Assembly (NCBI RefSeq): GCF_044704955.1
Contig: NC_091993.1
Location: 117,552,001-117,616,000, forward strand
Source: Pristiophorus japonicus
Lineage: Eukaryota
Direction of reading: 5' to 3'
Length of the DNA stretch: 64,000 nucleotides
The notes below the pieces were generated by a model. That model saw only the letters and a list, made by a program, of their open reading frames with translations. It was not told the origin of the DNA and ran no database searches. Each line of letters begins with the position of its first letter. The first letter of the stretch is position 1. This document shows, one piece after another, positions 16,052 through 53,288 of this stretch. The position numbers and the translations under genes are program-made.

Positions 16052-16088
16052 ATGTGGATTCTGATTCTTCTCATGTGTTCCCGGCCCG
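16052..16088 (+). CDS. Exon 1: signal peptide [12 protein letters not shown] (phase 1)
   Basis: ATG in AACGATGT context, hydrophobic stretch, strong donor G|GTGAGT at 16089. Joins exon 2 in frame to give ...RPVSGA-LWA, a plausible cleavage site. Confidence 0.85.
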
Positions 16089-25000: not shown

Positions 25001-28000
25001 CCGCCTAATCCTCACCATCCACGAATCTCTCCAGAATTCCAATGGTACCCATTGTGCATGCGAAGATTCTTAAATTATCTCGTCGCCAAATGTAATGTAT
25101 ATAATGACTCAAAAGAGTTGTTACTGTAAACTCACTCAGATGCAAACTTGGTTCAACTTTATTCGCGCCCAAAGTGCCACATGACATGGTAATCACTCTT
25201 ATACACCAGGGCTTGCGCATATGCGCATACAGCCCGATGACCTCCGACAGTAGCGCCCCCTGGTACCTGGTGACATAACACTCCCCCCCCCCCCCCCCAC
25301 CCCCATCTCACTCTCTCTCCTCTTCCCCATCTCGCTCTCTCTCCTCCATTGCTCTCTCCCTCACACACTCATCTCTCTCTCGCCCTCCCGCTCTCTCTTC
25401 CCCACCCCACATCTCTTTGTCTCTGGCCCCCGTGTCTCTCTCTCTCACCCCTTCTCCTCTCTCTTTCCCCCCCCCCTCGCCCCGTGTCTCTCTCTCTCTC
25501 CTCCCCACATCTCGCTCTCTGTCCTCCATCTCTCTCTCTCCCTCCCATCCTGATCTCTCTCTCGCCCCTCTCTCTCTCCCTACCTCTCTCTCTCCAACCC
25601 CGCCCCCCATCTCTCTGTCTCTGGCCCCCATATCTTTCTTTTGCCTCTTCTCCTCTCTCCCTCTCCCCCCCCCCAGCCCCCGTCTCTCTCTCACCCCGGC
25701 TCTCCCTTCCCCCCCCCCCATCCCCGTCTCCCCCCCCTAGCGTCTCTCTCTCTCTCTCTTCCCCCTCCCCATCTCTCTTTTCCCCCCTCCCGTCTCCATC
25801 TCCTTCCCACCCCCATCCCGCTCTCTCTCCTCAGTCTCTCCCTCACTCTCCCCCCCTCATCTCTCTCTCTCCCAACTGTCTCTGCCTCCCATCTCTCTCT
25901 CACCCTTCTCCTCTCACTTTCCCCCCCCCCCCACCCCCGTGTCTCTCTCTCTCTCTCTCTGTCCCTAGTCTCTCTCTTCCATCCACTCATATCTTTCTCG
26001 CTGCCCCGCAACCTCTCTCCCCTCCACTCATTTCTCTCTCCGCCCCCTCTCCTTTCTCTCTTCCCCCACCTGCCCCCGTCTCTCTCTCTCTCTCTCTTCC
26101 CCCTCTCATCTCCCTCTCTATTCCCTCCCTTGCTCTCCCCCCTCTACTCTCTCTCTCCCACCTTCTCCCATCTGTCTCTCTCTCTCCCCGCCAGTCTCCA
26201 CCACCGCCCCCCCCAGTCTCTCTCTCTCCCCAATGTCTCTCTCTCTCTCTCTCCCCTCCCGTCTCTCACTCTCTCCCACCCTCCCATCTCTCTCTCCACA
26301 CCTCTCTCTCTTCCCCCTCCTCTAACATTGTCCCCTGTCTCTCCCTCTTCTCCTCTCTTTCAGTCCCCCTCTCCCTCCGTCTCTCTCTCTCTCTTCCCCC
26401 CCAGTCTCTCTCTTCCCCCCATCTCTCTCTCTTCCCCCATCTCTCCCCCCTCCGTCTCTCTTAGTTCCACCCATTCCCGCACCAAACCCCCCCCCCCACC
26501 GGCTCTCTCTCCCTCCCTCTTCCCCCAGTATCTCTCTTTCCCCTGCCTCCCTCTATCCCCTGCCCCTCTCCCTCATCCCTCTCTCACCCCATCTCATCTC
26601 TCTCTCCCCTCCTCCACCCCCCATCTCTCTCCCCCTCTACCCCCATCTTCCCCCCACCACCCCCGTATCGCTCTCCCACCCCCATCTTTCTTTCCCTGCT
26701 CCTCCTGTCTCTCCCTCTCTGCTCCATCCTGTCTCTCTCTCTCTCCCCCTTCCACCCCGCCCAATCCTCTTCCTCCCCCCCGACTCTCTCTCTCTCTCTC
26801 TCTCCACCCGCCATGCCCCACGCTCCCCGCCCCGGTCTCGCTCTCTCTCCCCCTTGTCTCTCTCTCTCCCTCTTTCCCCCGTGTCTCTCTCTCTCTCTCT
26901 CCCCCCACATCCCTGTCTCCCTACTCCCCGACCCCGGTGTTTCTCTCTTCCTCCCCCATGTCTCTCTCACTCTCCCCCCATGTCACTCTCTCTGCCCCTC
27001 ATCTCTCTCTCTTTCTCTCTCCACCAGTCTCTCTCCTTCTCTCTCCCCCAGTATCCCTCTCTCCCCCCGCCCCTCTGCCTCACTCTCCCTCCCACCTCTG
27101 TCTCTCTCTCTCGCTCCGACCCCTGTCTCATTCTCTCCCTCCCCTCCCGTCACTCTCTCCCTCCCCTCCCCTCCTGTTATTCTCTCCCTCCACCCCCACC
27201 ACCGTTCTTTCTGTTCCTCCCCCACATTTCTCACTCCCCCATGTCGCTCTCTCTTTCCCCCCCCAGTCTCTCTCTCCCCCAGTCTGTCTCTCCTCCACCC
27301 TCCGTCTCACTCTCCCTCCCACCCGTCTCTCTCTCCCCCCCCGCCCCCGTCTCTCATTCTCCCCCCCCACCATCTCTCTCTCCCCCCTTTCATCTCTCTC
27401 TCCCCACCTCGCAACTCTCGCTCCCTTCTCCTCTCTCTCCTCCCTTCTCCTCTCTTTCCCCCCAGTCTCTCTCTCTCTCTCTCCCCCAGTCTCTCTCTCT
27501 CTCCCCAGTCTCTCTCTCTCTCTCTCCCTCTCTACCCCAGTCTCTCTCTCTCTCTCCTCCCAGTCTCTCCCTCTCTCCCCCCGTCTCTCTCTCTCCCCCC
27601 GTCTCTCTCTCTCTCCCCCCGTCTCTCTCTCTCTCCCCCCAGTCGCTCTCTCTCTCTCCCCTCAATCTCTCGATCTCTCCCCTCAATCTCTCGATCTCTC
27701 CCCCCAGTCTCTCTCTCTCTCCCCCAGTCTCTCTCTCTCTCTCCCTCCCCCCTAGTTTATTTCGCCCCCCTCCCCAGCTACCCCCCCCCCACCAATCCTG
27801 TCTGTCTCTCTCTCTCTCTCCCCGTCTCACTCTCTTCCCTCCGCCGCCCCCACCTGCCACTGTCTCTCTCTCTCTCTCATTGTCTTTCTCCCCCTCCTCT
27901 GTCTCCCCGTCTCTCTCTCTTACCACCCCAGTCTCTCTCTCTCTTGCTCGCCCCCCAGTATCCCTCTCTCTCTCTCCCACTCCGACAATGTTTTCTCTCA

Positions 28001-31000
28001 CACCGAAGGCCGCAAAAATATTCCAAATAATGCAAAAGCGGGAAGCAAATCCAGCTCCAGGCTCCAGCGGCAGAAAATGTTTCAGCAGTGATGAGCTCCA
28101 CCGGGCTCATGGTTTGGCTCCCAGTGACTGTATTCAAAAATAAATCATTGGCTGTGAAGCGCTTTGGCACATCCTGAGCATGTGATCAGACACTATATTA
28201 ACGTTTTCTTCCATCACAAACTAGAAGGAATTCACCTGTATCAATAGATGTAGTGGAGATGTAGTACAGAGTGGTAACTCTTATTCAATCGTAACTGTTT
28301 GTATTAAGCAGTTATTTCCTGTTCAATTTCTGAAATATTGTCTCCTCAGTTTCAGGTGCATTGTGGGCAAATAAACGAGTAAGAGGAATTGTGGGAAGAG
28401 CGATCACCATAGAATGTCACTATGACCAAAGGTACCGGTCACATGTGAAATATTGGTGTCAGGGCTGGACTCACCAATGCTCAGTTGTAGTAACAACAAA
28501 TGATCAACATGGATGGGGAAGAAGAGTGTCAATCACAGATAACCAGACAGCAGGAATATTTGTTGTTACGATGAAGGACCTTCGCTCAGCAGATGCAGGA
28601 TGGTACAGTTGTGGTATTACAGAATCAGGCAGCTTCGATAAACGTTTCAATATAGAGCTACAAATATCTCACGGTACGTTTCTCAGAGATGTGCTTTGTT
28701 ACTCTCTACTGAACTGTCTGATCAATGTTGTATCTGGGAGGAAACATGAGAGCTCCGATATCCCGAGGCTCCGCAGCAGTGCAGAGTCTCACAGGTAGTG
28801 GGCAGAGGTGGGGAAATCCGACTCACGGTGCACACTCCCAATCCGTGGCCTGCCCAACTTCCCGACCAGGAATTTCAAGTATTATGGGACTAACAATTCC
28901 TTTAACTACAGGGTGTTGTGCCAGACATCACATGGGAGGCTCACCACATGTCCCTGTTTCTGAGCTGTTTTAAATGTCCCACTGTCAGAGGTTTGCCTTC
29001 AGACTGAAACTAATAGACAATAACAAAAGCAGTGAGCAGCAAGTCGTTACTAATGGTATCAATTCCTTGAAATTAATAAAAATACCTGTAATCCACAGAG
29101 TTTAACAGGTTTCCTGTTTTCTTGATATGATGGGTGGCTCACATCATCAATGAGATATTTGGTCAACTTTACAAACAATATAAAATAAAATTGAAAAGCT
29201 GGTCACTGTTTTGATTGTAAAAGAAGCCTCTTTATTAAATGTTGAGACATTATCTTCCTCCCCAGCATAACCTCCTGATGGATCAACTATTAGATGCAAT
29301 GGTCCGGATATTAACTTCGAGACATGTTCGGTGCAGGGGATCCAATATCGCGTGGGAAACCCGGAAGTAATTTCAGTCTGTCTGTGGCATTTTAACGCAG
29401 CCGGCTCATTATAATTTACTCCCGGGTTTGGCGTTGCATGCGTGGTAACGGGAGTGCTGCGGGCACGCATGATGCGATCTTAACTGAAGTATTTAAAGGA
29501 CCAATCCAAAGATGGAATTCTAGGAGTTGGGCGGTTGGGAACAGAGACGGCAATTGTAGAAGATAGACTCAGGACGCTCAAAGCCCGCGCCCCACTTTAA
29601 CAACGACTCCCTTGACGTACTAAAGGGGGCAGTGAGGAGTCGGGGAGAGATACTCTTCCCCAGAACCGAGAGGAAGAAACCTACAAAGGAGCCATGCCTG
29701 GATGTGACTGAAGATGTCAGCAGCAGGAGCATTATCCCACACTCCTGGAGTCAGCACAGGTAGCTCTTTAATCACCTAACCCGGTTAGGAAAGGTGAGTA
29801 TAGCTGCTCCTTCTACCTGTTGTGCATATCACCCACCCCCTCAGCCTGTCTTTTCAAGTCTACTCCATCATATCACTCCTCACACCCACTTACCTTGCGT
29901 GCACACCCATCCTTCTCTTTCTAAGCACTTCCTCACATCCCCGTCTCTCCATCACCACTGCCACTCGCCCGAATCCTTATACAATTTCATCCCTCTCACT
30001 GATCATCACCCTCATCACATGCACTGCATCCATCAGGTGAACACATGCCAATACCGTCACTCAAAGGTCTGTTATTCCTTCCCAGGGTGCACCATCACAG
30101 GACTCATGCTTACCATGCACCAATGCAGATACTCACACTTCGGTGGGTCCAGTTAGACAGATAGTTGTGTTTTCACCTGGAGACTCACACTGCACAAGTG
30201 AGCAAGAACAGAGAGTGGTGGCAGGGACAGCACCGGAGGGTACAGCACTCTCCAAACCCTGCTCAGCTGGACACAGGTCCTGTACCCGGGGGCCGTTGAT
30301 GAAAAGGATAATCATTTAGGGGCAGCAGATAATCTGCAAAGTACTGACAGGCCTCCCATGCACACTGTCTACAATTGCAGAGGAGTCTACCTCAAGCATG
30401 AGTGGGTTGGTGTCACAGGGCATTGCGAGGATGTCTTCTTCCATGGATAGAATGGCCAACTCTGTGGAACATCAGTCGTGACAATCAAATGAGTCCATGC
30501 AAGCCACAGCCATAGATATCTGGCACCTTAAATAGGATGGCAGACACCTTAGCCTTGTCCTTACAGCACATCACTGATCTGCTCAACAGCAGAGAGGTAG
30601 GAGTGAAGTGCGATTGGGCCATCAGAGGGATGATGGTGAAAGGCGATATGGAAGTGGGGACTCCAATCAAAGTGCTCCCACTTCTCCACCACTGTCCCAC
30701 CCCACCCCTCAGTCGGTACCTGACATGCTGCCTCCTCTCCCGATGGCTGAGTCTGCCCCTGCACAGGTGCAGGTGAAGCAGTCTTTGGCAGGGCCCTCGT
30801 GGGCTCCAAACAGAGGACGGCGACCACTCAGCAGTCAGAGCAGGGAGCTGAGCAGCCTATCTTTACCTCTGCGTAAGTCATAAATGTTGCACCACATAGG
30901 AGCGTTAAGAAAAGTGTAAAGTTTTGTAGTTGCACAAGCCTATGCACAGTGTGTTTGAGAAATTGCTATGCTGTTAAGTAATGGTCCTTGAGCAGAACCA

Positions 31001-34000
31001 CATAAAATATTTAACTTTGCACCACTTTAACTTGTTGCCCCTTATTGGCTGCTGGAATGCAACTGGTCTTTTCAGTTGCTCGTTAATGAATGGGAAGACG
31101 TGAATTGATGGGGAGATGAGCAATGGTGGTTGGTGGGTAGCAGGTCTGCTTTGTGTCAGTGGGATTGGTGCAGGGGTGGGGGCGTTGGGTGGGGTGGAGG
31201 TGGGGGTGGGGAGTTGGGAACAGCCATTGGATGTGGTTGTTACATCAGCCCAGTTGTGGTAACTGACTGAACCTTACAGCTATAAAGGAAACACTGGCAT
31301 CGCGGGCAGCAATTTGAGTGACTGGTGCTGTGTTAGGGTCGCAATCTCTTCCTCCTCTTCCTGCTTCTTTTCCTCTTATCTTCCTCCTTTTCCTCTTATC
31401 TTCCTCCTCTGTCTCGGAATGGTCCACAGACAACGTGTGCTCAGCTCCTTGTCCCTCCTGCAGCTCCAATCTCGCTGCTGCGCAGTGTTGTGCAGAGCGC
31501 AGCAAACCACCATCATTCTGTAGGCCCAGGCTGGTGAGCACTGAAGGGCGCCTCCAGATCTGTCCAGGCAACTTGAGGGTGATGTCAGGAAACACTTCTT
31601 CCCACAAAGGGTAGTGGAACTATCGAAATCTCTACCCCAGAAATCTGTTGATGCTGAGGGTCAATTGAAAATTGCAAAACTGTCATTGGCCAATTTGCTT
31701 AGGCAAAGGTACTCAGGGTTATGGAACCAAGGCCGGTAGATGGAGATAAGATATAGATCAGCCAAGATTTAATTGAATGGCGGAACAGGCCCAAGGGGCT
31801 GAAACGCTTACTCCTTTTCCTATGTTCAGGACCTCCTGTTTATTTTTCAATGAATCTGAGTGTGTGAATAGAAAAGTGATTAAACCCACAAAACATGTAA
31901 CAGATATCTGCCAGTTTTTTGCCGTCTTATTCTGCTGTAGTTTTCAATCTCTCTATAACTAGTCCACATTCAAGAGTTAAACAATGAAATAACGTTGGAG
32001 GCTGGCTACCTGCTACTGAGAGAAATTGTTAGCCCTGATTTTCACATTGACACATCCTCAGTATCATTGCTGCTGTCCCGATCTGGAGCCCTGCTATGTT
32101 CTGATATAATGGCAGACATGGTAGTTCAGGCTGCTGGGAGGATGGAGAGACATGGAGAGGGAGATGTGCTGGTGAGATTCCAACATGGCAGGCCCTGGCT
32201 GAGATGCAGAAGTGCTGAAAATTGGAGAGTGTTTGATTTTTAAATGTTCAGTCAGTATCTGAATGTTTGTTTCTTTCCCACAGAATCCGTGTCAGTTCCT
32301 GTACTTAGATATTTTTCGCCACCAAATGTCTCATGTTCTGGGGGCTTGGTGTCAGTTTTCTGTGAGTCTGACCAGGGATCCCTTCCCATTCAGTACACAT
32401 GGTATGAACAGACCCCGATTAAAGGTTCAAAGATCTCCGACACCAATAAACTGGACCTACATTGTCAATCCTTCAAACAGCAACATCATCAATATTACTG
32501 CACAGTCTCAAATAATCAGGGAGAGGAATCCAGTGAAATGGTCGATGTGACAGTCTTCAACACAGCAGGGAAACACTGCAGTTATGTGACACAAATCAGC
32601 GGCATTGGTAAGTGTTACTTTAAACAAACATAGAAACATAGAAAATAGGTGCAGGAGTAGGCCATTCGGCCGTTCGAGCCTGCAACGCCATTCAATGAGT
32701 TCATGGCTGATCATGCAACTTTAGTACCCCATTCCTGTTTTCTGGCCATACCCCTTGATCCCCCTAGTAGTAAGGACTACATCTAACTCCTTTTTGAATA
32801 TATTTAGTGAATTGGCCTCAACAACTTTCTGTGGTAGAGAATTCCACAGGTTCACCACTCTCTGGAGGAAGAAGTTTCTCCTCATCTCAGATACTGACTG
32901 AACATTTAAAAATCAAACACTCTCCAATTTTCAGCACTTCTGCATCTCAGCCAGGGCCTGCCATGTTGGAATCTCACCAGCACATCTCCCTTTCCATGTC
33001 TCTCCATCCTCCCAGCAGCCTGAACTACCATGACTTACCCCTTATCCTAAGACTGTGACCCCTGGTTCTGGACTTCCCCAACATTGGGAACATTCTTCCT
33101 GCATCTAACCTGCCTAAATCCATCAGAATTTTAAACGTTTCTATGAGATCCCCTCTCATTCTTCTGAACGCCAGTGAATACAAGCCCAGTTTATCCAGTC
33201 TTTCTTGATATGTCAGTCCCGCCATCCCGGGAATCAGTTTGGTGAACCTTTGCTGCACTCCCTCAATAGCAAGAATGTCCTTCCTCAAGTTAGGAGACCA
33301 AAACTGTACACAATACTCCAGGTGTGGCCTCACCAAGGCCCTGTACAACTGTAGCAACACCTCCCTGCCCCTGTACTCAAATCTCCTCGCTATGAAGGCC
33401 AACATGCCATTTGCTTCCTTAACCACCTGCTGTACCTGCATGCCAACCTTCAATGACTGATGTACCATGACACCCAGGTCTCGTTGCACCTCCCCTTTTC
33501 CTAATCTGTCACCATTCAGATAATAGTCTGTCTCTCTCTTTTTACCACCAAAGTAGATAACCTCACATTTATCCACATTATACTTCATCTGCCATGCATT
33601 TGCCCACTCACCTAACCTATCCAAGTCACTCTGCAGCCTCATAGCATCGTCCTCGCAGCTCACACTGCCACCCAACTTAGTGTCATCCGCAAATTTGGAG
33701 ATACTACATTTAATCCTCTTGTCTAAATCATTAATGTACAGTGTAAACAGCTGGGGCCCCAGCACAGAACCTTGCGGTACCCCACTAGTCACTGCCTGCC
33801 ATTCTGAAAAGTACCCATTTACTCCTGCTCTTTGCTTCCTGTCTGCCACCAGTTCTCAATCCACATCAGCACACTACCCCCAATCCCATGTGCTTTAACT
33901 TTGCACATTAATCTCTTGTGTGGGACCTTGTCGAAAGCCTTCTGAAAGTCCAAATACATCACATCAACTGGTTCTTCCTTGTCCACTCTACTGGAAACAT

Positions 34001-37000
34001 CCTCAAAAATTTCCAGAAGATTTATCAAGCATGATTTCCCTTTCACAAATCCATGCTGACTTGGACCTATCATGTCACCTCTTTCCAAATGCGCAGCTAT
34101 GACATCCTTAATAATTGATTCCATCATTTTACCCACTACCGATGTCAGGCTGACCGGTCTATAATGCTCTGTTTTCTCTCTCTCTCCTTTTTTAAAAAGT
34201 TGGTTTACATTGGCTACCCTCCACTCCATAGGAACTGATCCAGAGTCTATGGAATGTTGGAAAATGACTGTCAATACATCAGCTATTTCCAAGGCCACCT
34301 CCTTAAGTACTCTGGGATGCAGACCATCAGGCCCTGGGAATTTATCGGCCTTCAATCCCATCAATTTCCCCAACACAGTTTCCCGACTAATAAGGATTTC
34401 CCTCAGTTCCTCCTTCTTACTAGACCCTCTGACCCCTTTTATATCCGGAAGATTGTTTGTGCCCTCCTTAGTGAATACCGAACCAAAGTACTTGTTCAAT
34501 TGGTCTGCCATTTCTTTGTTCCCCGTTATGACGTCCCCTGATTCTGCCTGCAGGGGACCTATGTTTGTCTTTACTAACCTTTTTCTCTTTACATATCTAT
34601 AGAAGCTTTTGCAGTACGTTTTAATGTTCCCTGCAAGCTTCCTCTCGTACTCTATTTTCCCTGCCCTAATCAAACCCTTTGTCCTCCTCTGCTGAGTTCT
34701 AAATTTCTCCCAGTCCCTGGGTTCATTGCTATTTCTGGCCAATTTGTATGCCACTTCCTTGGCTTTAATACTATCCCTGATTTCCCTTGATAGCCACGGT
34801 TGAGCCACCTTCCCTTTTTTATTTTTACGCCAGACAGGGATGTACAATTGTTGTAGTTCATCCATGCGGTCTCTAAATGTCTGCCATTGCCCATCCACTG
34901 TCAACCCCTTAAGTATCATTCGCCAATCTATCCTAGCCAATTCACGCCTCATACCTTCAAAGTTACCCTTCTTTAAGTTCTGGACCATGGTCTCTGAATT
35001 AACTGTTTCATTCTCCATCCTAATGTAGAATTCCACCATATTATGGTCACTCTTCCCCAAGGGGCCTCGCACAACGAGATTGCTAATTAATCCTCTCTCA
35101 TTACACAATATGGTTAATGAATTTTTTAAATGAGTATCTATCCAAACTGGTCGCTGGTTAAATGCTTTCAGTCACTGAGCGACTTCAAGTGGCCAAATTC
35201 ACTCCATTTGGATCCCTCAATAGTTAAAAACAGAATTATTCAGTCACCATAACACTATGTCCCTGGTTCTGAATTAAGGAGGACTTAAGCTAATTTAAAT
35301 GTATTGGTTTAATTTTTCGCAGAGTGGGCACATGAAAACGTAAGAAATAGGAGTAGGAGTAGGCCATATGGCCCCTTGAGCCTGCTCTGCCATTCAATAA
35401 GATCATGGACTCAGGTCCACTTTCCTGCCCACTCCCCATGACCCCTTATCCCCTTATCATTAAAGAAACTGTCTATTTCTGTCTTAAATTTATTCAATTT
35501 CCCAGCTTCCACAGCTCTCTGAGGCAGCGAATTCCACAGATTTACAACCCTCAGAGAAGAAATTTCTCCTCATCTCTGTTTTAAATGGGCAGCCTCTTAT
35601 TCTAAGATCATGCCCTCTAGTTCTAGTCTCCCCCATCAGTGGAAATATCCTCTCTGCATCCACCTTGTCAAGCCACCTCATAATCTTATACGTTTCGATA
35701 AGATCACCTCTCTTTCTTTTGAATTCCAGTGAGTAGAGGCCCAACCTACTCAACCTTTCCTCATAAGTCAACCCCCTCATCCCCGAAATCAACCTCGTGA
35801 ACCTTCTCTGAACTGTGTCCAAAATAAGTATGTCCTTTTCGTAAATATGGAAACCAAAACTGCACGCAGTATTCCAGGTGTGGCCTTACCAATACCTTGT
35901 ATAACTGTAACAAGACATCCCTACTTTTATACACCATCCCCATTGCAATAAAGGCCAAGATACCATTGGCTTTCCTGATCACTTGCTGTACCTGCATACT
36001 AACCATTTGTGTTTCATGCACAAGTACCCCCAGATCCTGCTGTACTGCTGCACTTTGCAATCTTTCTCCATTTCAGAGGATAGAAGCAATATGTTCACCA
36101 GTGGCTGCGCTGAGAAACATCAAAATGGTCAGAAAACAAAGAGAAATGCATTTCCTCCTAAGCAGCAATAAATATAAATGAACATATGCAAATATTTTCT
36201 CCGGCCATATGCTCGTGGATTCACTTGCAGAGATAACGTTTCAGGTCGATGACCCTTTGCCAGAACTGGAAAAGGTTAAAGATCTAACAGGTTTTTAAGC
36301 AAGTATAGGGGCAGTGAAAGGGGGAGGGGAGGAAAGAACAAAAGGTAAGGTCTGTGATAGGGTGGAAGGCAGGAGAGATTAAGAAAGAAAAGGGATGATG
36401 GTGCAATGCAAAAGGAGTTGGTAATGAGAATTCTGTGGGGAGAGGGTGAACAGCCAGAGGTCATGGTCCATATTGGTACCAATGACAGAGGTAGAAAGAA
36501 GGATGAAGTCATGCAGGCAGATTTCAGAGAGCAAGCAGAGAGATTAAAAAGCAGAACCCCAAAGATAGTAATCGGCGGATTACTCCCGGTGCCACGTGCT
36601 AGTGAGTATAGAAATCGGAGGATAGAGCAGATGATTGCGTGGCTGGAGAGATGGTGCACCAGGGAGGGCTTTAGGTTCCTGATCCATTGGGACCGTTTCC
36701 AGGGGAGGTGGGACCTGTACACCTCAATAGAACCGGGACCAATATCCTCGTGGGGGGGAGCGGGCGGTGGGATGTTGCTAGTGCTGTTGGGGAGGAGTTA
36801 ATCTAGATTGGCGGGGGATGGGAAGCTGGGAATAAATTCAGAAGGAAGAGAAGCAAAGCTGAAATTGGAAAGCAGAAAAGTAGAAAGTGAATTTGGAAGG
36901 CAGAGGAAACAATGGCTAGAAAACAGACAATAAGGGAGTTTGGTAGTGCTAAATGCTATATATTTCAATGCAAGGAGTCTGGGGAATAAGGCAGATGAGC

Positions 37001-46000: not shown

Positions 46001-49000
46001 CTGCCATTTCTTTGCTCCCCATTATAAATTCACCTGATTCTGACTGCAAGGGACGTGAGCTTGTCTTCACTAATCCTTTTTCCCTTCACATATCTATAGA
46101 AGCTTTTGCAGTCAGTTTTTATGTTCCCAGCAAGCTTCCTCTCGTACTCCATTTTCCCCCTCCTAATTAAACCCTTTGTCCTCCTCTGCAAATTCTAAAT
46201 TTCTCCCAGTCCTCAGGTTTGCTGCTTGTTCTGGCCAATTTATATACCTCTTCCTTGGATTTAACACTATCCTTTGACTATAAATTTGACTATGAAGATC
46301 ATCTGACTATAAAATCCAGATAATGCATCAAAATGTTGTTACTTCTATATTGTCAGGTGTCACCAGGTATTCTTTTGTTCTGTTTGTTGTATATGAAACT
46401 TACCACGCATTAAAATGGCTCAGTGTTAGCACACTCATTTTCTGAGTCAGAAGGTCGTAGTTTCACGTCCCAATCCAGGGTCTTGAGCGCAATATCTAGG
46501 CTGATGCTCCAGTGCAGTACTGAGGGGGTGCTGCCTTTCAGATGAGACCTTAAATCAAGGGCCCATCTGCCCTCTCAGGTGGATGTAACAGGTTCCATGG
46601 CAATATTTGGAGAAGAGCAGGGGAGCTCTCCCTACTGTCCTTAACCAACACCACTAAAAAAAAAATACAGATCATCTGGTCATTATCACATTGCTGTTTG
46701 TGGGACCTTGTTGTGTGCATATTTGGCTGCCGTGTTATCTGCATTACAGCAATACATTCAAAAGTACTTCATTGACTGTAAAGTGCTTTGGGATGTCCTG
46801 AGGCCATGAAAGGTGCTATATAAATGCAAGTTCTTTAAACAAATAGCCAAGAATCAATAGAGAACCAGCGCTGACCCTTTCCTATTCTCTGTACCACAGG
46901 CTGATTTACATTGTGCTCGGTGTGCCGGGGGCCTTTATTGTTGTGCTTGCTGTTTGCCGACTTTTGTACCTGATGCAAAACAAGAAGGGTGAGTTTCTAT
47001 TTTTCTGCAATCATTTCATTATATGTCAATAATTTGCTGCAGAATATAAAGAGAACATAGTTTGTTGCAAACAACGAACACCTATGATTGTAGTATGCTG
47101 CACATTCTAGTCTAAATGTATAAAATATGGAAGAATAATTAAGTTGTTACGCTTGCTAGGTAACAGCAAATATTGGGTTTAGAATTTGACCCGTCGAGCC
47201 CGAGCCATCTCTCTGCAAGATCATTTCAGCCAGTCCCTCTCCCCTACCCTTTTCCCGTAGCCCTGCAAAAATGTTTCCTTCAGGTACATATCCAATTCCC
47301 TTTTTGAAAGCCGTGATTGAGTCTGCCTCCACCACCCTTTCAGGCCGTGCATTCCAGATCCTAACCACTCGCTGCATAAAAAGTTTTTCCTCATGTCGCC
47401 TTTGCTTCTTCTGCCAATCACCTTAAATCTGTGTCCTTTGGTTCTCAACCCTTCTGCCAATGAGGAATCTGAAGAAATTAATCTTGAAGCAGCTTGTAAG
47501 TTGTTGCACCTCACCACAGATGGTATAATAAAGTAACTTGTAATCTCCAGTAAGAGCACAGGGTCAGTAGGATTCCCACAGAAACCATCCTCTAAGTCTT
47601 TCATAAGAACATAAGAAATAGGAGCAGGAGTCGGCCATTTGGCCCCTCGAGCCTGCTCTGCCAATCAATAAGATCATTGCTGATATGATCCGGGCCTCAA
47701 AAAAAAATACTCCACTTCCCCACCAGCTCCTCATAACCCTTGACTCCCTTATCATTCAAAAATCTGTCTATCTCCATCTTAAATATATTCAAAGACCCAG
47801 CATCCACAGCTCTCTGGGATAGAGAATTCCACAGATTCACGACCCTCTGAGACAAGAAATTCCTCCTCATCTAAATTTTAAACGGGCGACCACTTATTCT
47901 GAAACTATGCCCCCTAGTTCTAGATTCCTCCATGAGGGGAAACATCCTCTCTGCATCTACCCTATCAAACCCCCTCAGAATCTTACATGTTTCAATAAGA
48001 TCACCTCTCATTCTTCTAAACTCCAAGAAGTATAGGCCCAACCTGCTCAATCTTTCTTTATATGACAACCTCTTCATCTCTGGAATCAACCTAGTGAACC
48101 TTCTCTGAACTGCCTCCAATGCAAGTATATCTTTCCTTAAATAAGGAGACCAAAACTGTACGCAGTACTCCAGGTGTGGTCTTACCAACTCCCTGTACAG
48201 TTGGAGCAGGACTTCCCTACTTTTATACTCTATCTCCCTTGCAATAAAGCCCAGCATTCCATTTGCCTTCCTGATTACTTGCTGGACCTGCATGCTAACT
48301 TTTTGCCTTTCCTGCACAAGAACCCCCAGATCCCTCTGTACCGCAGATTTTGTAACTTCTCCCCAGTTAAATAATAATTTGCTTTTTTTATTTTTCCCAC
48401 CAAAGTGGATAACCTCACATTTTCCCACATTATAGTCCATCTGCCAAATTTTTGTCCACTCACTGAGCCTCTCTATATCTCTTTGTAGATTCTTTGCTTC
48501 ATCCTCACAACTTGCTTTCCCACCTATCTTTTTATCATCAAATTTGGTTACATTACACTTGGTCCCTTCGTCCAATTCATTAATATAAATTGTAAATAGT
48601 TGAGGCCCCAGCACTGATCCCTGTGGCACCCCACTAGTTACAGTTTGCCAGCTGAAAGTGACCCATTTATCCCAATTCTCTGTTTTCTGTTAGTTAGCCA
48701 CTCCTCTATCCATGCTAATATAACACCCCCAAACCCGTGAGCTCTTATCTTGTGCAGTACCTTTTGTGTGGCACCTTATCGAATACTTTCTGGAAATCCA
48801 AATATACAACATCAACTGGTTCTCTTTTATCCACTCTACTCATTACATCCTCAAAGAACACCATCAAATTTGTCAAACATGTTTTCCCTTTAATAAAACC
48901 ACGCTGACGCTGCTTGACTGGATTATGATTTTCTAAATGTCCTGCTACTACTTCCTTAATGGTGGACTCCAGCATTTTCCCAATGACAGATGTTAGGCTA

Positions 49001-52000
49001 ACTGGTCTATAGTTTCCTGCTTTCTGTCTCCCTCCTTTCTTAAATAGAGGTGTTACATTTGTGGTTTTCCAGTCCGCTGGGACCTCTCCATAATTCAGGG
49101 AGTTTTTCTAGATTACAACTAATGCATCCACTATCTCTGCAGCCACTTCTTTTCAGACCCTAGGATGCAACCGTCAGGTCCAGAGAACTTGTCCACCTTT
49201 CGTCCCATTAGTAATTCTTTCATTAGGAGACAGGTGTTTAAAAGTGGTGATTTATTAAATCTGGTCCTAATGTTATGATGATAATCAAGTTTACAATCAT
49301 CATTGCATATACAAGCTATGTACAGGTTGAACCGCTCTTATCCGGGATTCCCTTATCCGGCACCACCCCTCGTCCGGAACCATTCCCGGCCGCTGGGTGG
49401 CGCATGCGCAGAACACAACCGTCAAAATCCTACTTGCCAATATAATCTTTCTCCTCGATCGGCTGCCTCCTCCTCGTCACCCTGCTGGAACTCCTGTAGC
49501 CACAGTCCTCGGGCCAGCCGCTCCTCTCCACAGCACTCCCTCTGGGGGGGTCGGGCTGACTGTTCTGGGCTCGCCAACTCGCCGACTCTTCTGGGTCTGC
49601 CGGCTCTTCGGGGCCCGCCAGCTCTTCGGGGCCCACCAACTCGCCGACTCTTCTGGGTCTGCTGGCTCTTTGGAGCCCACCAACTCTTCTCAGCCTCCTG
49701 CACACTGATTGGCTGACTGACAGTTATTCCAGCCAATCGGCGCACACACACACTGACCGCAGCAACACCTCAGCCCAGCCTAGTAACAGCACTTAAAGGC
49801 GCAGTTCATCCAAACACGTGAACTCCCCTCATCCGGCAAAATCCCTCATTCGGAACAGGCCAGATCCCGAGGATGTCGGATAAGGGAGGTTCAACTTGTA
49901 TTAACAACAAACTTGTTTCCTTTTTTCTTTTGTTTCTAAGTTACCTCATAGTTTCTTCCCTTCCCCTTCTCGTTTACTGGAGGTTTTCAATGATATGAAT
50001 GGTCCTGATCAAGTGAATGGAGAAAAATGGTTTTCTCTGGTTGGGGAGTCAGAGTTAAAGGGGTCATCAATTTAAAATTGTTACCAAGAGAGTGAGCAGA
50101 AAAGTAAGGAGACATTTCTTTATTCAGAGGGTTGCTGGAGCATGGAATGTTTTGTCACAGGGAGTGGCAATAACCCTTGGACCTTTTTAAAGGTAAATTG
50201 GGTAATGATTTGAAGCAGAGGGATATACAGAGCATTGAATAGTGAGCAAAGGCATTAGAATTAGTTTTGGATTGCTCCAGCAAAGAGCTGCCAGACAGAC
50301 TTCTCTAAGACTCATGGACCAACAAGGTGGACCAGTTTTCCGCTGCTAATGCTGCACCTGAGATCAATAAGGTGAGAACTCCTAAGATTTCTCCCGTCTG
50401 CTTATAGTGAAACCACTATTCTCGGCCATGGAGATGATTGGGTAATTCCCCGTCAATCACACCTGGAGACTGCACTGCTGTAAGTGACTGGGATTGAATT
50501 TATGCTCAGAATTTGCATGTAGCTATCATCCACACTACGTTTTGCTGGAGAAATAATTAATTTGTATTTTGTAACTACCCTTTGCTGGAGAAACCATCCT
50601 ATTATCATCAGGAGAAATGGCCATAGTTTTGGTCAGGAGTTCTGTTCCTCTAGTCCATAGAGACTCTTTTTAAATAGACCATGAAGACTGTTTGCTGTAA
50701 TGCACTGTTTAAATAGACTCTGCAGACTGTTTGCTGTAATGCACTGTTTAAATAGACTCTGCTGAGTAAATAGACTTTGCATTACTGTTTTCTTAATAAA
50801 TACATTTTGTTTTCTGCAAAATAAACTAGTCCTGCCCCGCCTCCAACTCATTGGCTGACACAGTGCAATTCATTGGCTGACACAGTGCAACTCATTGGCT
50901 GACATTGTGGTGTCAGTAGAAAAAAGAAAGAATTATATAATGACCATCAGACGTCCCAAAACACTTTTTAGACAAAGAAGTACTTCTTGAAGTTTAGTCA
51001 CTGTTATCATGTAGGAAACGCGGCAGACAATTTGCACACAGCAAGGTCCCACAAACAGCAATATGATAATCATCAGAAAATCTGTTTTCGTTATGTTGGT
51101 TGAGGGATAAATATTGGCCAGGAAACCAGGGATAACTCCCCTACTCTTCTTTGAAATAGTGCCATGGGATTTTTTATATCCACCTGAGAGCTGGCAATGC
51201 CTTGCATTAACATCTCATCCGAAAGATGGCACCTCCGACAGTGCAGCACTCCCTCAGTGCCTGAGCGTCAGCCAAGATTTTTGTGCTCTAGTCTCTGGAA
51301 TGAGACTTGAACCCACGACCTTCTGACTCAGAGGCGAGGGTGCTGCCAAATGAGCCACTCGCTGATACAACTCAGTCACTGGCTGACTCTGATTTCTCCC
51401 TGTGATGAATTGTTTGGCCTCCCACTGATGGCACAACATGTCAGGAGCTCATTTTCTGGGTAGAATTGATCGGTCTTTGTCTCGTAAAACCCTAAACACA
51501 CGGGAAGCTAATTTTCATCTTCACATCTTGAGCGATAATCTGGCAGAGTGCCTTGTAGAAATCAATCAGATTCTACTCGGGCGAGTTCTGCAACAGGCAG
51601 ATGATCGACAGCGTCAAACAGTGAAGGTGAAAGTTACCTCCGTGCTTTCTGAATATTGTGCATAATAACCAGAACAGTTTTTTGCTCTATGTGGGGAATC
51701 ATGTGTGTAATGCAGATGAGGTCCACATGAATGTAGATCAATGTAAGATCATACACTCTGAAACACATGCTCAGTTTGTACATTTAAATATATTAATTGT
51801 TCTTGTTATAGCTCTTTCAACAGCAACATTGTAATTTTTCAGATACAAATTGCATAATATGTCACAGAGAAGACGAGACTCTTCACGATAATCAGGTAAG
51901 GGTATTAAGTATGGATCCTCTGAATAACATTTGGAAATTATGAAACTGAAAATTAGGATTTTGGGCCAGGATGTGCACATGCATTATTTTAACCTTTTAA

Positions 52001-53288
52001 CCTCCTCCAGCCCGACAACTCTCCAAGAACTCTGCGTTCCTCCCACTCCGGCCTTATGCATCCTCCACTTCCTTAACACCACCATTGGCGGACTTGACTT
52101 CAGACATCTAGGCCCTAAGCTCTGGAATTTTCTCCTTAAACCTCTCCGCTGCTATCTCCTCCTTTTAAGATGCTCCTTAAAATATTTTGCCTTAAAACCT
52201 TAGAAGTTTTTGGCCAACTGCCCTGATGTCTCCTTATTTGGCTCGGTTTCAATTTTTAACTGATTATGCTCCTGTGAAGCTCCATGGGACATTTTACTAT
52301 GTTGAAGGCACTCTATGAAAGCAAGTTGTTGTTGTTGTAAATATAGATGTAGTTAATATTGATTCAGGATCACTGCTACTTCACCTATGAGATGTAATGT
52401 GTTATGATACTCTCCTGGAAAATTAAAAATTTATGGAAAGATTGAACAGGCTGGGGCTCTTTTCTGAAAAGAGAAAACTGAGGGGTGACCTGAAAGAGGT
52501 TTTCAAGATTATAGAAGGGTTGGATAGAGTAGACATAGAGAATATGTTTCCATTTGCAAGCAAGGCGAGAACTAGGGACCATATAAGACACTAATAAATC
52601 CAATCGGGAATTCAGGAAGAACTTCTTTACCCAGAGAGTGGTCAGAATGTGGAACTCGCTACCACAGGGAGTAGTTGAGGCAAATAGCATAAATGCATTC
52701 AAGGGGAAGTTAAATAAGCACATGGGGAGAAAGGAATAGAGGGGTATGTTGATGGGGTTAGATGAAGAGGGGTGGAAGGAGGCTCGTGTGGAGCATAAAC
52801 ACCGACATGGACCCATTGGGCCGAATGGCCTGTTTCTGTGCTGTAAATAATTTGTCGTACTTTGTAAATTGATTTGCAATAATCTAGAAATATATTTTAC
52901 CTCATAACAGCACAAATCACCATTCATGTTAATCAGAGATAAATTGGATCTTGTATTTTTTTTATTTTAGCAATTTTCAGCAGTGGAAGGAAGCACTGTA
53001 TATGCAAGTCTAAAGCCCCTTCGACGTAACTCAGCAGAAATGCCCAGTGAGGGAACTGCCCAGTTGAGTAACGCCGAAAATGGAATCACCTTTGCAGCAG
53101 TGCAGTTTCAGAAGAAATCAACAGCACGGAGCGGTGAGGTGGCCAGGCACTCAGTTAACAACAAGGACAGTGTCACCTACAGTGCTATCAAGGTTCAAAC
53201 CTATCCCCCAACGAACAACAGAGACCCTCCATCACCTGATACTCCACAGGACTCTGAAATGGCAATTTATGCTAACGTTAGATGTTAG
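16052..53288 (+). CDS. Complete 7-exon CD300/CMRF35/pIgR-like (MDIR-like) Ig-superfamily receptor, 421 aa: join(16052-16088,28350-28673,32284-32607,40319-40439,46900-46988,51843-51895,52971-53288)
   Basis: All six introns are GT-AG with compatible phases (1,1,1,2,1,0). Exon lengths 37+324+324+121+89+53+318 = 1266 nt with no internal stop. Domain order is signal peptide, V-set, C2-like, S/T stalk, TM, tyrosine-motif tail. Confidence 0.88.
16640..17200 (-). mobile_element. Very old CR1-like fragment (ORF2 start region)
   Basis: Weak degenerate similarity to the endonuclease N-terminus. Confidence 0.3.
17241..27980 (+). repeat. ~6.3-kb CT-rich polypyrimidine low-complexity tract in intron 1 (17241-20860 and 25281-27980)
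   Basis: Overwhelmingly C/T on the + strand, irregular (CT)n and Cn runs. Interrupted by a Gypsy element and by a CR1 3' end at ~19355-19450. Confidence 0.95.
20861..25280 (-). mobile_element. Full-length, decayed Gypsy/Ty3 LTR retrotransposon
   Basis: LTRs at 20861-21065 and 25091-25280 (TG...CA), 5-bp TSD CTCCC, PBS TGGCGACGAG next to the 5' LTR. Gag CCHC (CWRCGGNH), RT (FQDD), RNase H and integrase (HVWWPG, SDNG) fragments with frameshifts. Confidence 0.93.
28350..28673 (+). CDS. Exon 2: Ig V-set domain of CD300/pIgR/TREM type
   Basis: ITIEC (B-strand Cys), KYWC-x6-C (extra C-C' disulfide typical of CD300/pIgR), DAGWYSC (D-x-G-x-Y-x-C). Acceptor tctcctcAG at 28348-28349, donor G|GTACGT at 28674. 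Confidence 0.93.
29300..31560. mobile_element. Degenerate Harbinger-type element (Myb/SANT remnant on +, transposase C-terminal remnant on -)
   Basis: [25 protein letters not shown]-like reading near 29587 and an acidic transposase tail near 31250-31560; boundaries uncertain. Confidence 0.45.
32117..33032. repeat. 146-bp inverted repeat pair (32117-32262 / 32887-33032) enclosing exon 3
   Basis: Manual reverse-complement alignment gives 145/146 identity; the single difference is a G-U pair in RNA. Confidence 0.95.
32284..32607 (+). CDS. Exon 3: C2-like Ig domain
   Basis: VSVPVL...VSVFCES[11 protein letters not shown]...YYCTVSN. Acceptor ttctttcccacAG, donor G|GTAAGT, symmetric phase 1-1. Confidence 0.92.
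32626..35108 (-). mobile_element. CR1 LINE (same subfamily as 10625-13579), frameshifted, carrying a 146-bp templated insertion
   Basis: ORFs 33819-35108 and 33025-33849 are nearly identical to the 10714-12780 protein; frameshift near 33845. Confidence 0.93.
35340..36075 (-). mobile_element. CR1 3' fragment
   Basis: [13 protein letters not shown] motif and CR1 3' end. Confidence 0.85.
36430..39800 (+). mobile_element. Degenerate CR1 LINE (ORF1 esterase end plus whole ORF2), sense to the gene
   Basis: VMVHIGTND (SGNH-like), [23 protein letters not shown]; many stops and frameshifts; tail TTCTATGATTCTATTCTATG. Confidence 0.9.
40319..40439 (+). CDS. Exon 4: Ser/Thr-rich stalk ([23 protein letters not shown]...STK)
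   Basis: Acceptor ttttgttgtttcaatAG, open frame continuing exon 3, donor AG|GTACAA (phase 2). Not in the ORF track because it lacks a start codon. Confidence 0.82.
41160..43330 (-). mobile_element. CR1 LINE, 3' half
   Basis: ORFs 41582-43324 carry RT motifs; 3' UTR with an ATAGAAACATAGA tail. Confidence 0.88.
44283..46275 (-). mobile_element. CR1 LINE, 3' half
   Basis: RT fragments in ORFs 44830-45861. Confidence 0.88.
46415..46835 (+). mobile_element. SacSINE1/DeuSINE-like SINE (tRNA-like head, Deu-like core, L2-like tail)
   Basis: GGCTCAGTG...GAGTCAGAAGGT head, CAGTACTGAGGG...CTCTCAGGTGGA core, tail GCTATATAAATGCAAGT. Ends ~65 nt before the TM exon. Confidence 0.75.
46900..46988 (+). CDS. 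Exon 5: transmembrane segment [30 protein letters not shown]
   Basis: Acceptor ttctctgtaccacAG, hydrophobic run followed by basic residues, donor G|GTGAGT. Confidence 0.87.
47600..49215 (-). mobile_element. CR1 LINE, 3' half
   Basis: ORFs 47871-48629 and 48745-48975. Confidence 0.88.
49323..49898. mobile_element. Tc1/mariner (Tigger/pogo-like) MITE
   Basis: TA|CAGGTTGAACC...GGTTCAACTTG|TA termini, sub-terminal CTTATCCG(G/A) repeats and internal ~40-bp repeats. Confidence 0.8.
50660..50905. repeat. Two short tandem arrays: ~39-bp unit x2.5 and 22-bp unit (CTCATTGGCTGACACAGTGCAA) x~3
   Basis: Directly visible. Confidence 0.7.
50920..51365 (-). mobile_element. SacSINE1/DeuSINE-like SINE
   Basis: Reverse complement of the 46415-46835 family. 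Confidence 0.75.
51843..51895 (+). CDS. Exon 6: juxtamembrane cytoplasmic segment [18 protein letters not shown]
   Basis: Acceptor taatttttcAG, donor CAG|GTAAGG. Converts phase 1 to phase 0 as exon 7 requires. Confidence 0.75.
51995..52845 (+). mobile_element. L2-like 3' end (~51995-52340) and CR1 3' end (~52425-52845) in intron 6
   Basis: L2-type tail with (TTG)n; CR1 3' coding end and terminal sequence. Confidence 0.65.
52971..53288 (+). CDS. Exon 7: cytoplasmic tail with TVYASL, ITFAAV, VTYSAI and AIYANV motifs; TAG stop
   Basis: Acceptor tttttttattttAG at 52969-52970, in frame with ORF 52983-53288; regularly spaced YxxL/I/V motifs. Confidence 0.88.
   Translation, partial: QFSAVEGSTVYASLKPLRRNSAEMPSEGTAQLSNAENGITFAAVQFQKKSTARSGEVARHSVNNKDSVTYSAIKVQTYPPTNNRDPPSPDTPQDSEMAIYANVRC

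What the first reader, a model, noticed from the sequence alone, without database searches (positions are those of the whole stretch)
32117..33032. Near-perfect 146-bp inverted duplication bracketing the C2-domain exon: possible RNA-structure switch between two-domain and one-domain receptors
Seen: intron sequence 32117-32262, ending 21 nt before exon 3 and covering the likely branch-point zone, is copied in reverse at 32887-33032, 280 nt after the donor. Identity is 145/146 and the difference pairs as G-U. Exon 3 is 324 nt and phase 1-1. Known: flanking inverted repeats promote exon skipping, back-splicing and ADAR editing. Inference: the duplex would loop out exon 3 and give an in-frame V-only (CD300-like) isoform and/or an exon-3 circRNA, a possible route to modular domain variation in this receptor family.
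Basis: partly seen in the sequence, partly recalled or inferred. Interest (0 to 1): 0.75.

Follow-up and report, generated by a model that had tools for sequence, protein, structure and literature searches.

The report
Template-switch hairpin around shark receptor exon
In one of nine near-identical shark immune-receptor genes, a 146-base piece of intron sits copied backwards on the far side of an exon, most likely as a recent DNA-copying slip, so the RNA is predicted to fold over that exon's branch-point region and would likely cause some exon skipping as an unselected side effect that no data here has yet shown.

Summary
The repeat is real in the assembly: 32117-32262 against 32887-33032, 145/146. 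It is not an old family feature. The gene is one of nine paralogs. The downstream arm lies inside an antisense LINE; three sister genes carry the same LINE at the same site without the arm. In this copy 141 new bases replaced 8, with TC and ATG microhomologies: a 3-2-1-4 template-switch insertion. Similar short-range inverted pairs occur elsewhere (2 in 620 kb of control DNA), and earlier scan notes report look-alikes in other genomes. The predicted stem covers 7 of 7 branch-point candidates, so some skipping is plausible; human CHM and MANBA inverted duplications are precedents. No usable RNA evidence was obtained. Verdict: a young mutational scar with a likely splicing side effect, not an evolved switch. 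Its value is the built-in set of arm-less sister controls.

The parts
32117..32262 (+). Upstream arm: original intron-2 sequence (-167 to -22 from the 3' splice site), the template of the copy; holds all 7 branch-point candidates
   Evidence: Present in all 9 paralogs at 92.5-100%; branch-point scan and pairing probabilities
32887..33032 (-). Downstream arm: inverted copy. 141 new bases (32889-33029) plus microhomologies TC (32887-32888) and ATG (33030-33032); replaced 8 bases of the LINE
   Evidence: Junctions against sisters L002, L007, L008; other genomic LINE copies skip it (joint 32888 to 33030)
32284..32607 (+). Exon 3, second Ig domain (C2-like), 324 nt, phase 1-1, in the 624-nt loop
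   Evidence: Pfam Ig_2 at its cut-off, E 5.4e-6
32626..35171 (-). Antisense non-LTR retrotransposon (LINE) with reverse-transcriptase frames, host of the inserted arm; the right end is approximate; the label CR1-like is recalled, not tested
   Evidence: Matches to other copies; ORFs; Pfam RVT_1 in both frames; same insertion in 3 sisters
16052..16088 (+). Exon 1 coding part (leader peptide)
28356..28673 (+). Exon 2, V-set Ig domain of the CD300/pIgR type; 100% identical in two upstream sister genes
   Evidence: Pfam V-set E 1.1e-11; pIgR and CD300 best PDB hits; identity
40319..40439 (+). Exon 4, stalk with the conserved EYSC cysteine; 100% identical in three upstream sister genes
46900..46988 (+). 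Exon 5, transmembrane exon of the uncharged type B, absent from the three sister genes; the marker that tells this gene's transcripts apart
51843..51895 (+). Exon 6, short cytoplasmic exon
52971..53288 (+). Exon 7, cytoplasmic tail with ITIM-like motifs TVYASL, VTYSAI, AIYANV (and ITFAAV, Phe in place of Tyr) and the stop codon

Best explanation
The downstream arm is a copy-specific inverted insertion inside an intronic LINE of one receptor gene, most likely made by a DNA template switch, and the RNA stem it is predicted to form would likely cause some exon-3 skipping or back-splicing as an unselected side effect. Shown: 141 new bases copied from the opposite strand about 630 nt upstream replaced 8 bases, with 2-nt and 3-nt microhomologies. 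Inferred origin: synthesis stalled at 32888, primed on TC at the opposite strand near 32261, copied back to about 32120, and returned via ATG, 8 nt further on (event type 3-2-1-4). Inferred effect: once 32887-33032 is transcribed it pairs with -167 to -22 of intron 2, hides the branch-point candidates from U2 and brings the exon's ends together. Transcripts that commit exon 3 before the 770 nt between branch point and arm end are made escape. The product of skipping would be an in-frame 311-aa V-stalk inhibitory-type receptor with an odd cysteine.
For: Arm in 1 of 9 paralogs; 3 of 3 sisters with the same LINE lack it and keep the 8-nt pre-insertion sequence also seen in another LINE copy in the window; microhomology at both junctions. 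A second clear inverted insertion with a deletion (C17:117376778-938, two homologous copies lack it) and an 81-nt one in paralog L009 lie in the same cluster. Comparable pairs occur in control DNA: 2 in 619,600 bases. Duplex -302.7 kcal/mol; unpaired probability 0.00-0.08 across 32250-32262. Precedents: type 3-2-1-4 creates inverted repeats (PMC5453318, passages); germline MMBIR-like insertions with microhomology (PMC8421209, passages); CHM and MANBA inverted duplications with observed exon skipping (PMC8756506, PMC6549551, passages); enrichment of inverted Alu pairs near skipped exons rises with proximity (PMC13019944, first part of Results).
Against: No RNA observation of skipping, circle or editing. 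In CHM and MANBA the inverted copy includes the exon itself and is 1.75-13 kb long; here both splice sites and the pyrimidine tract stay outside the stem. The equilibrium fold also pairs part of the branch-point region in the arm-less sister (32259-32262 unpaired 0.01-0.04 in L002), so the folding contrast at the nearest candidate is weak. The database protein P0003 includes this exon 3, but it is a model that fuses several neighbouring genes, so it says little. The junctions were not seen in reads.
Confidence: 0.55

Rival explanations
1. Same template-switch origin, but functionally silent: exon 3 is defined co-transcriptionally before the downstream arm can pair, or helicases and RNA-binding proteins keep the stem open, so splicing is unchanged.
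For: Consensus GTAAGT donor and an intact CAG acceptor with pyrimidine tract lie outside the stem. The gene is intact, 419 aa, while two other type-B paralogs carry stops, so a strongly disabling stem might be costly. Inverted pairs of at least 100 nt and 75% flank 5 of 27 exons tested in the cluster, so bracketing is not rare.
Against: Of those 5, this is the closest (21 and 279 nt) and most perfect (98.7%), and it covers every branch-point candidate. Proximity raises the association with skipping in human data.
Confidence: 0.33
2. One reading: a selected RNA-structure switch that toggles two-domain and one-domain receptors.
For: Geometry is ideal (in-frame symmetric exon, branch-point cover). 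V-only receptors exist in the family: P0025 and the last module of P0008/P0009. An annotated skate isoform pair differs by one C2 exon (P0008 against P0009).
Against: Private to one copy and young: 1 difference in 141, 95% interval 0.02-4%. No covariation. The V-only skate module has a different, cysteine-free stalk start, whereas skipping here strands a cysteine conserved in 8 of 10 homologues and 9 of 9 paralogs. The skate isoforms come from a model with an internal transmembrane segment, so likely fused genes.
Confidence: 0.07
3. Assembly or sequencing artefact (chimeric or fold-back read).
For: No read or contig across the junctions was shown; the region is a tandem array that is hard to assemble.
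Against: The sequence returns to the same LINE 8 nt further on, with microhomology at both ends and one substitution not found in any of the 7 paralog templates aligned. A fold-back chimera would give a palindrome, not a 624-nt spacer. The only assembly gap in the 436-kb cluster is about 220 kb away.
Confidence: 0.05

Closest known systems
Short-range template-switch mutations, type 3-2-1-4 (four-point model, PMC5453318)
   Same: Order of switch points 3 (about 32120), 2 (about 32261), 1 (32888), 4 (8 nt on); creates an inverted repeat; polarised by comparison with close homologues.
   Different: Larger (141 nt copied, about 630-nt jump) than the mutation clusters of tens of bases that the paper's passages describe; polarised here by paralogs, not by species.
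MMBIR-like templated insertions (PMC8421209); polymerase-theta templated insertions (seen as search listing only)
   Same: Nearby template, microhomology at both junctions, return to the original template with a small deletion.
   Different: The enzyme cannot be told from sequence; 2-3 nt microhomology is at the short end of the 2-12 nt given for the tumour sample.
CHM exon-12 and MANBA intragenic inverted duplications (PMC8756506, PMC6549551)
   Same: Template switch a few hundred bases downstream of an exon, microhomology, small gap, predicted pre-mRNA hairpin; exon skipping was observed in those patients. In CHM the insertion point is 693 nt past the exon and the loop is 274 nt.
   Different: Those copies contain the exon(s) and pair with them; here only intron sequence is copied and the exon sits in the loop. 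Skipping is shown there, untested here.
Loop-out exon skipping by inverted Alu pairs, including TBXT (PMC13019027, PMC13019944; PMC10901737 as listing only)
   Same: Intronic inverted arms on both sides of a cassette exon.
   Different: Arms here are unique intron sequence and its own copy, not two retroelements; 99% identical; one arm overlaps the branch-point zone.
Modular domain immune-type receptors (MDIR) and CD300/pIgR-like paired receptors of cartilaginous fish
   Same: CD300/pIgR-type V domain; multigene cluster with two transmembrane types, one with an arginine and short tail, one with ITIM-like motifs. PMC3031540 (passages) describes MDIRs as multigene activating/inhibitory families related to CD300 and pIgR.
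   Different: No MDIR sequence was compared, so orthology is untested; database homologues are named pIgR-like, CMRF35-like or uncharacterized.

Membership tests
Template-switch / templated inverted insertion | Insertion absent from the ancestral allele | tested here: met
   3 of 3 sisters with the same LINE lack it
Template-switch / templated inverted insertion | Inserted bases copy a nearby sequence in reverse complement | tested here: met
   145/146 to a template 624 nt away
Template-switch / templated inverted insertion | Microhomology at the junctions and return to the original template | tested here: met
   TC and ATG, 8-nt deletion
Template-switch / templated inverted insertion | Present in the DNA of the organism (read support) | tested here: inconclusive
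   One search was swamped by LINE contigs; junctions not shown
Template-switch / templated inverted insertion | Responsible pathway (FoSTeS/MMBIR or polymerase theta) | not testable with these tools
   Signatures overlap
Loop-out exon skipping / circRNA by flanking inverted repeats | Stable complementary arms in both flanking introns | tested here: met
   Predicted only:
Loop-out exon skipping / circRNA by flanking inverted repeats | Skipped, back-spliced or edited transcripts | tested here: inconclusive
   No usable RNA data
Evolved RNA-structure splicing switch | Conservation of both arms across homologues with compensatory changes | tested here: not met
   1 of 9 paralogs; one G-U change only; other species not examined at DNA level
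Evolved RNA-structure splicing switch | Regulated use by tissue or stimulus | not testable with these tools
   Needs gene-specific RNA data
CD300/pIgR-like (MDIR-type) paired receptors | CD300/pIgR-type V domain with four cysteines | tested here: met
   Cys 20, 34, 41, 85; best PDB hits pIgR and CD300
CD300/pIgR-like (MDIR-type) paired receptors | Cluster with activating-type and inhibitory-type members | tested here: met
   By motif only: 5 type-A transmembrane exons (arginine) and 4 type-B cytoplasmic exons with tyrosine motifs
CD300/pIgR-like (MDIR-type) paired receptors | Orthology to skate MDIR1-4 | not tested
   No MDIR sequence was fetched

The most novel reading that the evidence does not exclude
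A single replication slip converted the newest inhibitory member of a paired-receptor array into a two-isoform gene: the hairpin removes the C2 exon from part of the transcripts and yields a short V-stalk inhibitory receptor whose freed stalk cysteine makes a disulfide-linked dimer, while three sister genes with the same stalk and LINE (two with the same V domain) stay two-domain. This would be a splicing innovation caught at birth, with natural isogenic controls, and a retroelement-independent route to new cassette exons in slowly evolving shark genomes.
Probability: 0.12. Interest if true: 0.62.

Novelty: new member of a known kind. Interest (0 to 1): 0.3.

Why it matters
As a mechanism it is known: template switches make inverted repeats, and inverted repeats can cause exon skipping. 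What is useful is the setting. The event can be read base by base against three sister genes that share the LINE but lack the arm, so one RT-PCR or long-read experiment measures what a 146-bp near-perfect stem over the branch point does in a native gene. The control sample suggests on the order of ten thousand such pairs in this genome (2 in 620 kb; 95% interval about 2,000-69,000), so most will be noise. A positive result would show that such scars can seed alternative splicing in fast-turnover immune gene families; a negative result would show how well exon definition resists intronic stems.

Tried and rejected
RNA evidence: no RNA holder listed (24 runs, best holders DNA-like); this is no evidence either way. 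Four runs were laid as contigs on 28300-33300. LINE copies swamped the arm region, 136 joints were not shown, and no junction-spanning contig was displayed, so neither the arm nor any splice junction could be read. In run X5 (kind unknown) one contig stops at the end of exon 2 with 30 unplaced letters and another starts at exon 3, a weak hint of spliced RNA; the 8 listed exon-3 differences match sisters L007/L008 (8 of 8) and not this gene (0 of 8), so it says nothing on this copy. The exon 2-exon 4 span could not be examined in reads, which leaves skipping open. Structure prediction of the V-C2-stalk ectodomain failed (mean pLDDT 40.2), so the proposed disulfide rests on co-conservation alone. 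Dating: 1 difference in 141 cannot be told from the age of the split from the nearest sister (P = 0.10-0.18); only the order (after LINE insertion, absent in sisters) is firm. Ten of the control stretches asked for did not exist; the control is 619,600 bases from six places chosen by round coordinates, not at random. Of the four other short-range pairs, one is a clear insertion, and three could not be polarised with the DNA held. Rejected: P0003 (1283 aa) as one giant receptor, because it holds an internal leader and transmembrane segment and each unit has its own leader and TM exon; two independent retroelement copies as the source of the arms, because the template is unique intron sequence found only in the paralogs; G-U as compensation. 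Literature: two searches for MDIR papers gave 0 and 1 hits and a third gave mostly unrelated hits; no search was aimed at this locus itself, so absence from print is not claimed. No supplements were read.

Full report
Observation. Exon 3 (32284-32607, 324 nt, phase 1-1) lies in the 624-nt spacer; the arms are 21 nt and 279 nt from it. The predicted RNA fold has one unbroken stem, -464.5 kcal/mol against -267.7 for 20 shuffles; the duplex alone is -302.7.

The gene. Seven exons give an open 419-aa protein: leader (16052-16088), V domain (28356-28673), second Ig domain (exon 3), stalk (40319-40439), transmembrane exon (46900-46988), and two cytoplasmic exons ending at 53288. The V domain hits Pfam V-set, and pIgR and CD300 in the PDB. 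All 25 homologues returned carry shark, skate or ray labels; residues 14-419 equal the last 406 residues of P0003, which its source labels Pristiophorus japonicus. P0003 is a fused model of several neighbours. The own-genome search found 11 matches from 10 of 10 candidates scored: nine paralogs within about 400 kb of C17 and two inverted pieces. Five paralogs have an arginine-bearing TM exon and short tail; four, including this one, have a tail with tyrosine motifs. That these are activating and inhibitory types is inferred from motifs. This gene ends a run of four 50-kb tandem units; its exon 2 is 100% identical in two sisters and exon 4 in three.

Where the arm came from. The downstream arm interrupts an antisense LINE that starts 19 nt after exon 3 (RVT_1 in both long frames). 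Sisters L002, L007 and L008 have the same LINE at the same place with no arm; the other five paralogs have no LINE there. The sisters read TC-8 nt-ATG at the site; this copy reads TC-141 nt-ATG, and the template also begins with TC and ends with ATG. Contigs of other LINE copies skip the same bases (tables 5 and 5c). This is a 3-2-1-4 template switch in the four-point model, a type that with its mirror made 31% of high-confidence human-chimp events (PMC5453318, passages), and fits germline MMBIR-like insertions (PMC8421209, passages). The one mismatch is derived in the copy: all 7 paralog templates that aligned keep G (L002, L007, L008 dropped out of that alignment through a script anchor error). 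The order of events is firm; the age is not (1 of 141).

How unusual. In 619,600 control bases from six places, 2 pairs had arms of 100-400 nt, at least 90% identity and a gap of at most 1 kb, one of them at 98%; the 436-kb cluster holds 3, this one included. One of the other two in the cluster is a clear inverted insertion that replaced about 690 nt. In paralog L009, 81 nt of the same intron segment sit inverted in another LINE 10 kb upstream; the sequence reads through the 5' junction of an inverted sister LINE into its flank, and it does not bracket any exon. Inverted pairs of at least 100 nt and 75% within 5 kb flank 5 of 27 exons tested. So the genome makes such things often; this one stands out for closeness and perfection only. 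Three notes of this scan on other genomes describe similar cases; I did not check them and they are not independent support.

What it would do. All 7 yTnA-type adenosines between -80 and -10 lie in the upstream arm, the nearest (A32262, -22) at the inner end of the stem; the pyrimidine tract, AG and donor lie in the loop. Branch points are predicted by a simple motif, recalled from general knowledge, not mapped. The stem can only form after 770 more nucleotides are made, so exon definition may win. The equilibrium model also pairs 32259-32262 in the arm-less sister, which weakens the contrast at that one site. In human CHM and MANBA, template-switch inverted duplications go with observed exon skipping, with a hairpin proposed (PMC8756506, PMC6549551, passages), but those copies include the exons. 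Inverted Alu pairs are enriched around skipped exons, more so near splice sites (PMC13019027 passages; PMC13019944 abstract and first part of Results). I put the chance of measurable skipping or circle formation a little above even.

The skipped product. Removing exon 3 keeps the frame (311 aa) but takes the ectodomain from 10 cysteines to 5. The last cysteine of exon 3 is kept in 10 of 10 aligned homologues and the exon-4 cysteine in 8 of 10, and 9 of 9 paralog stalks carry EYSC; a disulfide across the exon border is inferred, and the fold meant to test it failed. A V-only module in a skate model uses a different stalk start without this cysteine. The product is therefore not a plain CD300-like receptor: it could dimerise or be retained.

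What could not be shown. No RNA holder was listed and the laid contigs were uninformative on the junctions and on splicing. Because exons 2 and 4 are shared with sisters, only reads that reach exon 5 can test skipping.

Verdict. Observation confirmed in the assembly; interpretation partly supported. Best reading: young template-switch scar with a likely, unselected splicing side effect (0.55); silent scar 0.33; selected switch 0.07; artefact 0.05. New member of a known kind; interest 0.3, mainly for the natural sister controls.

Noticed in passing
G000:C17:117385157-117385237 (L011), paralog L009 intron 2: A second inverted copy (81 nt, 100%) of the same intron segment (window 32099-32179) inside another LINE; looks like read-through of an inverted sister LINE's 5' junction. 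It matches this gene's and two other paralogs' version better than L009's own. Why two events overlap on one template is unexplained.
   Followed up: partly
window 38094-39724 and 41574-43232: A 1.76-kb, 79.5% inverted LINE pair brackets exon 4 (594 and 1134 nt away); also present around the stalk exon of L005, absent in the three sisters. Exon 4 is 121 nt, so skipping it would shift the frame.
   Followed up: partly
G000:C17:117240001-117676000: Paired-receptor-like cluster of nine V-C2 genes. This tyrosine-motif gene shares an almost identical ectodomain with three upstream arginine-TM genes, suggesting recent unequal crossing-over or conversion; V domains of other copies differ strongly.
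   Followed up: partly
L005 exon 3; L006 exon 2 and last exon: Stop codons in two of the four type-B paralogs, so this gene may be one of only two intact inhibitory-type members.
   Followed up: partly
window 52971-53288: The second tyrosine motif reads ITFAAV here, while the three other type-B tails have Tyr.
   Followed up: no
P0003 and several homologues: Database gene models fuse neighbouring paralogs into 600-1350 aa proteins with internal leaders or TM segments.
   Followed up: partly
G000:C17:117376778-117376938: 161-nt inverted insertion (92% to a template 797 nt away) replacing about 690 nt relative to two homologous copies.
   Followed up: partly
window 17200-20860 and 25280-27950: Two multi-kilobase degenerate (TC)n pyrimidine tracts in intron 1.
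   Followed up: no
G000:C13:70083418-70084118: 215-nt, 98% inverted pair 272 nt apart in control DNA, a close look-alike; origin not polarised.
   Followed up: partly
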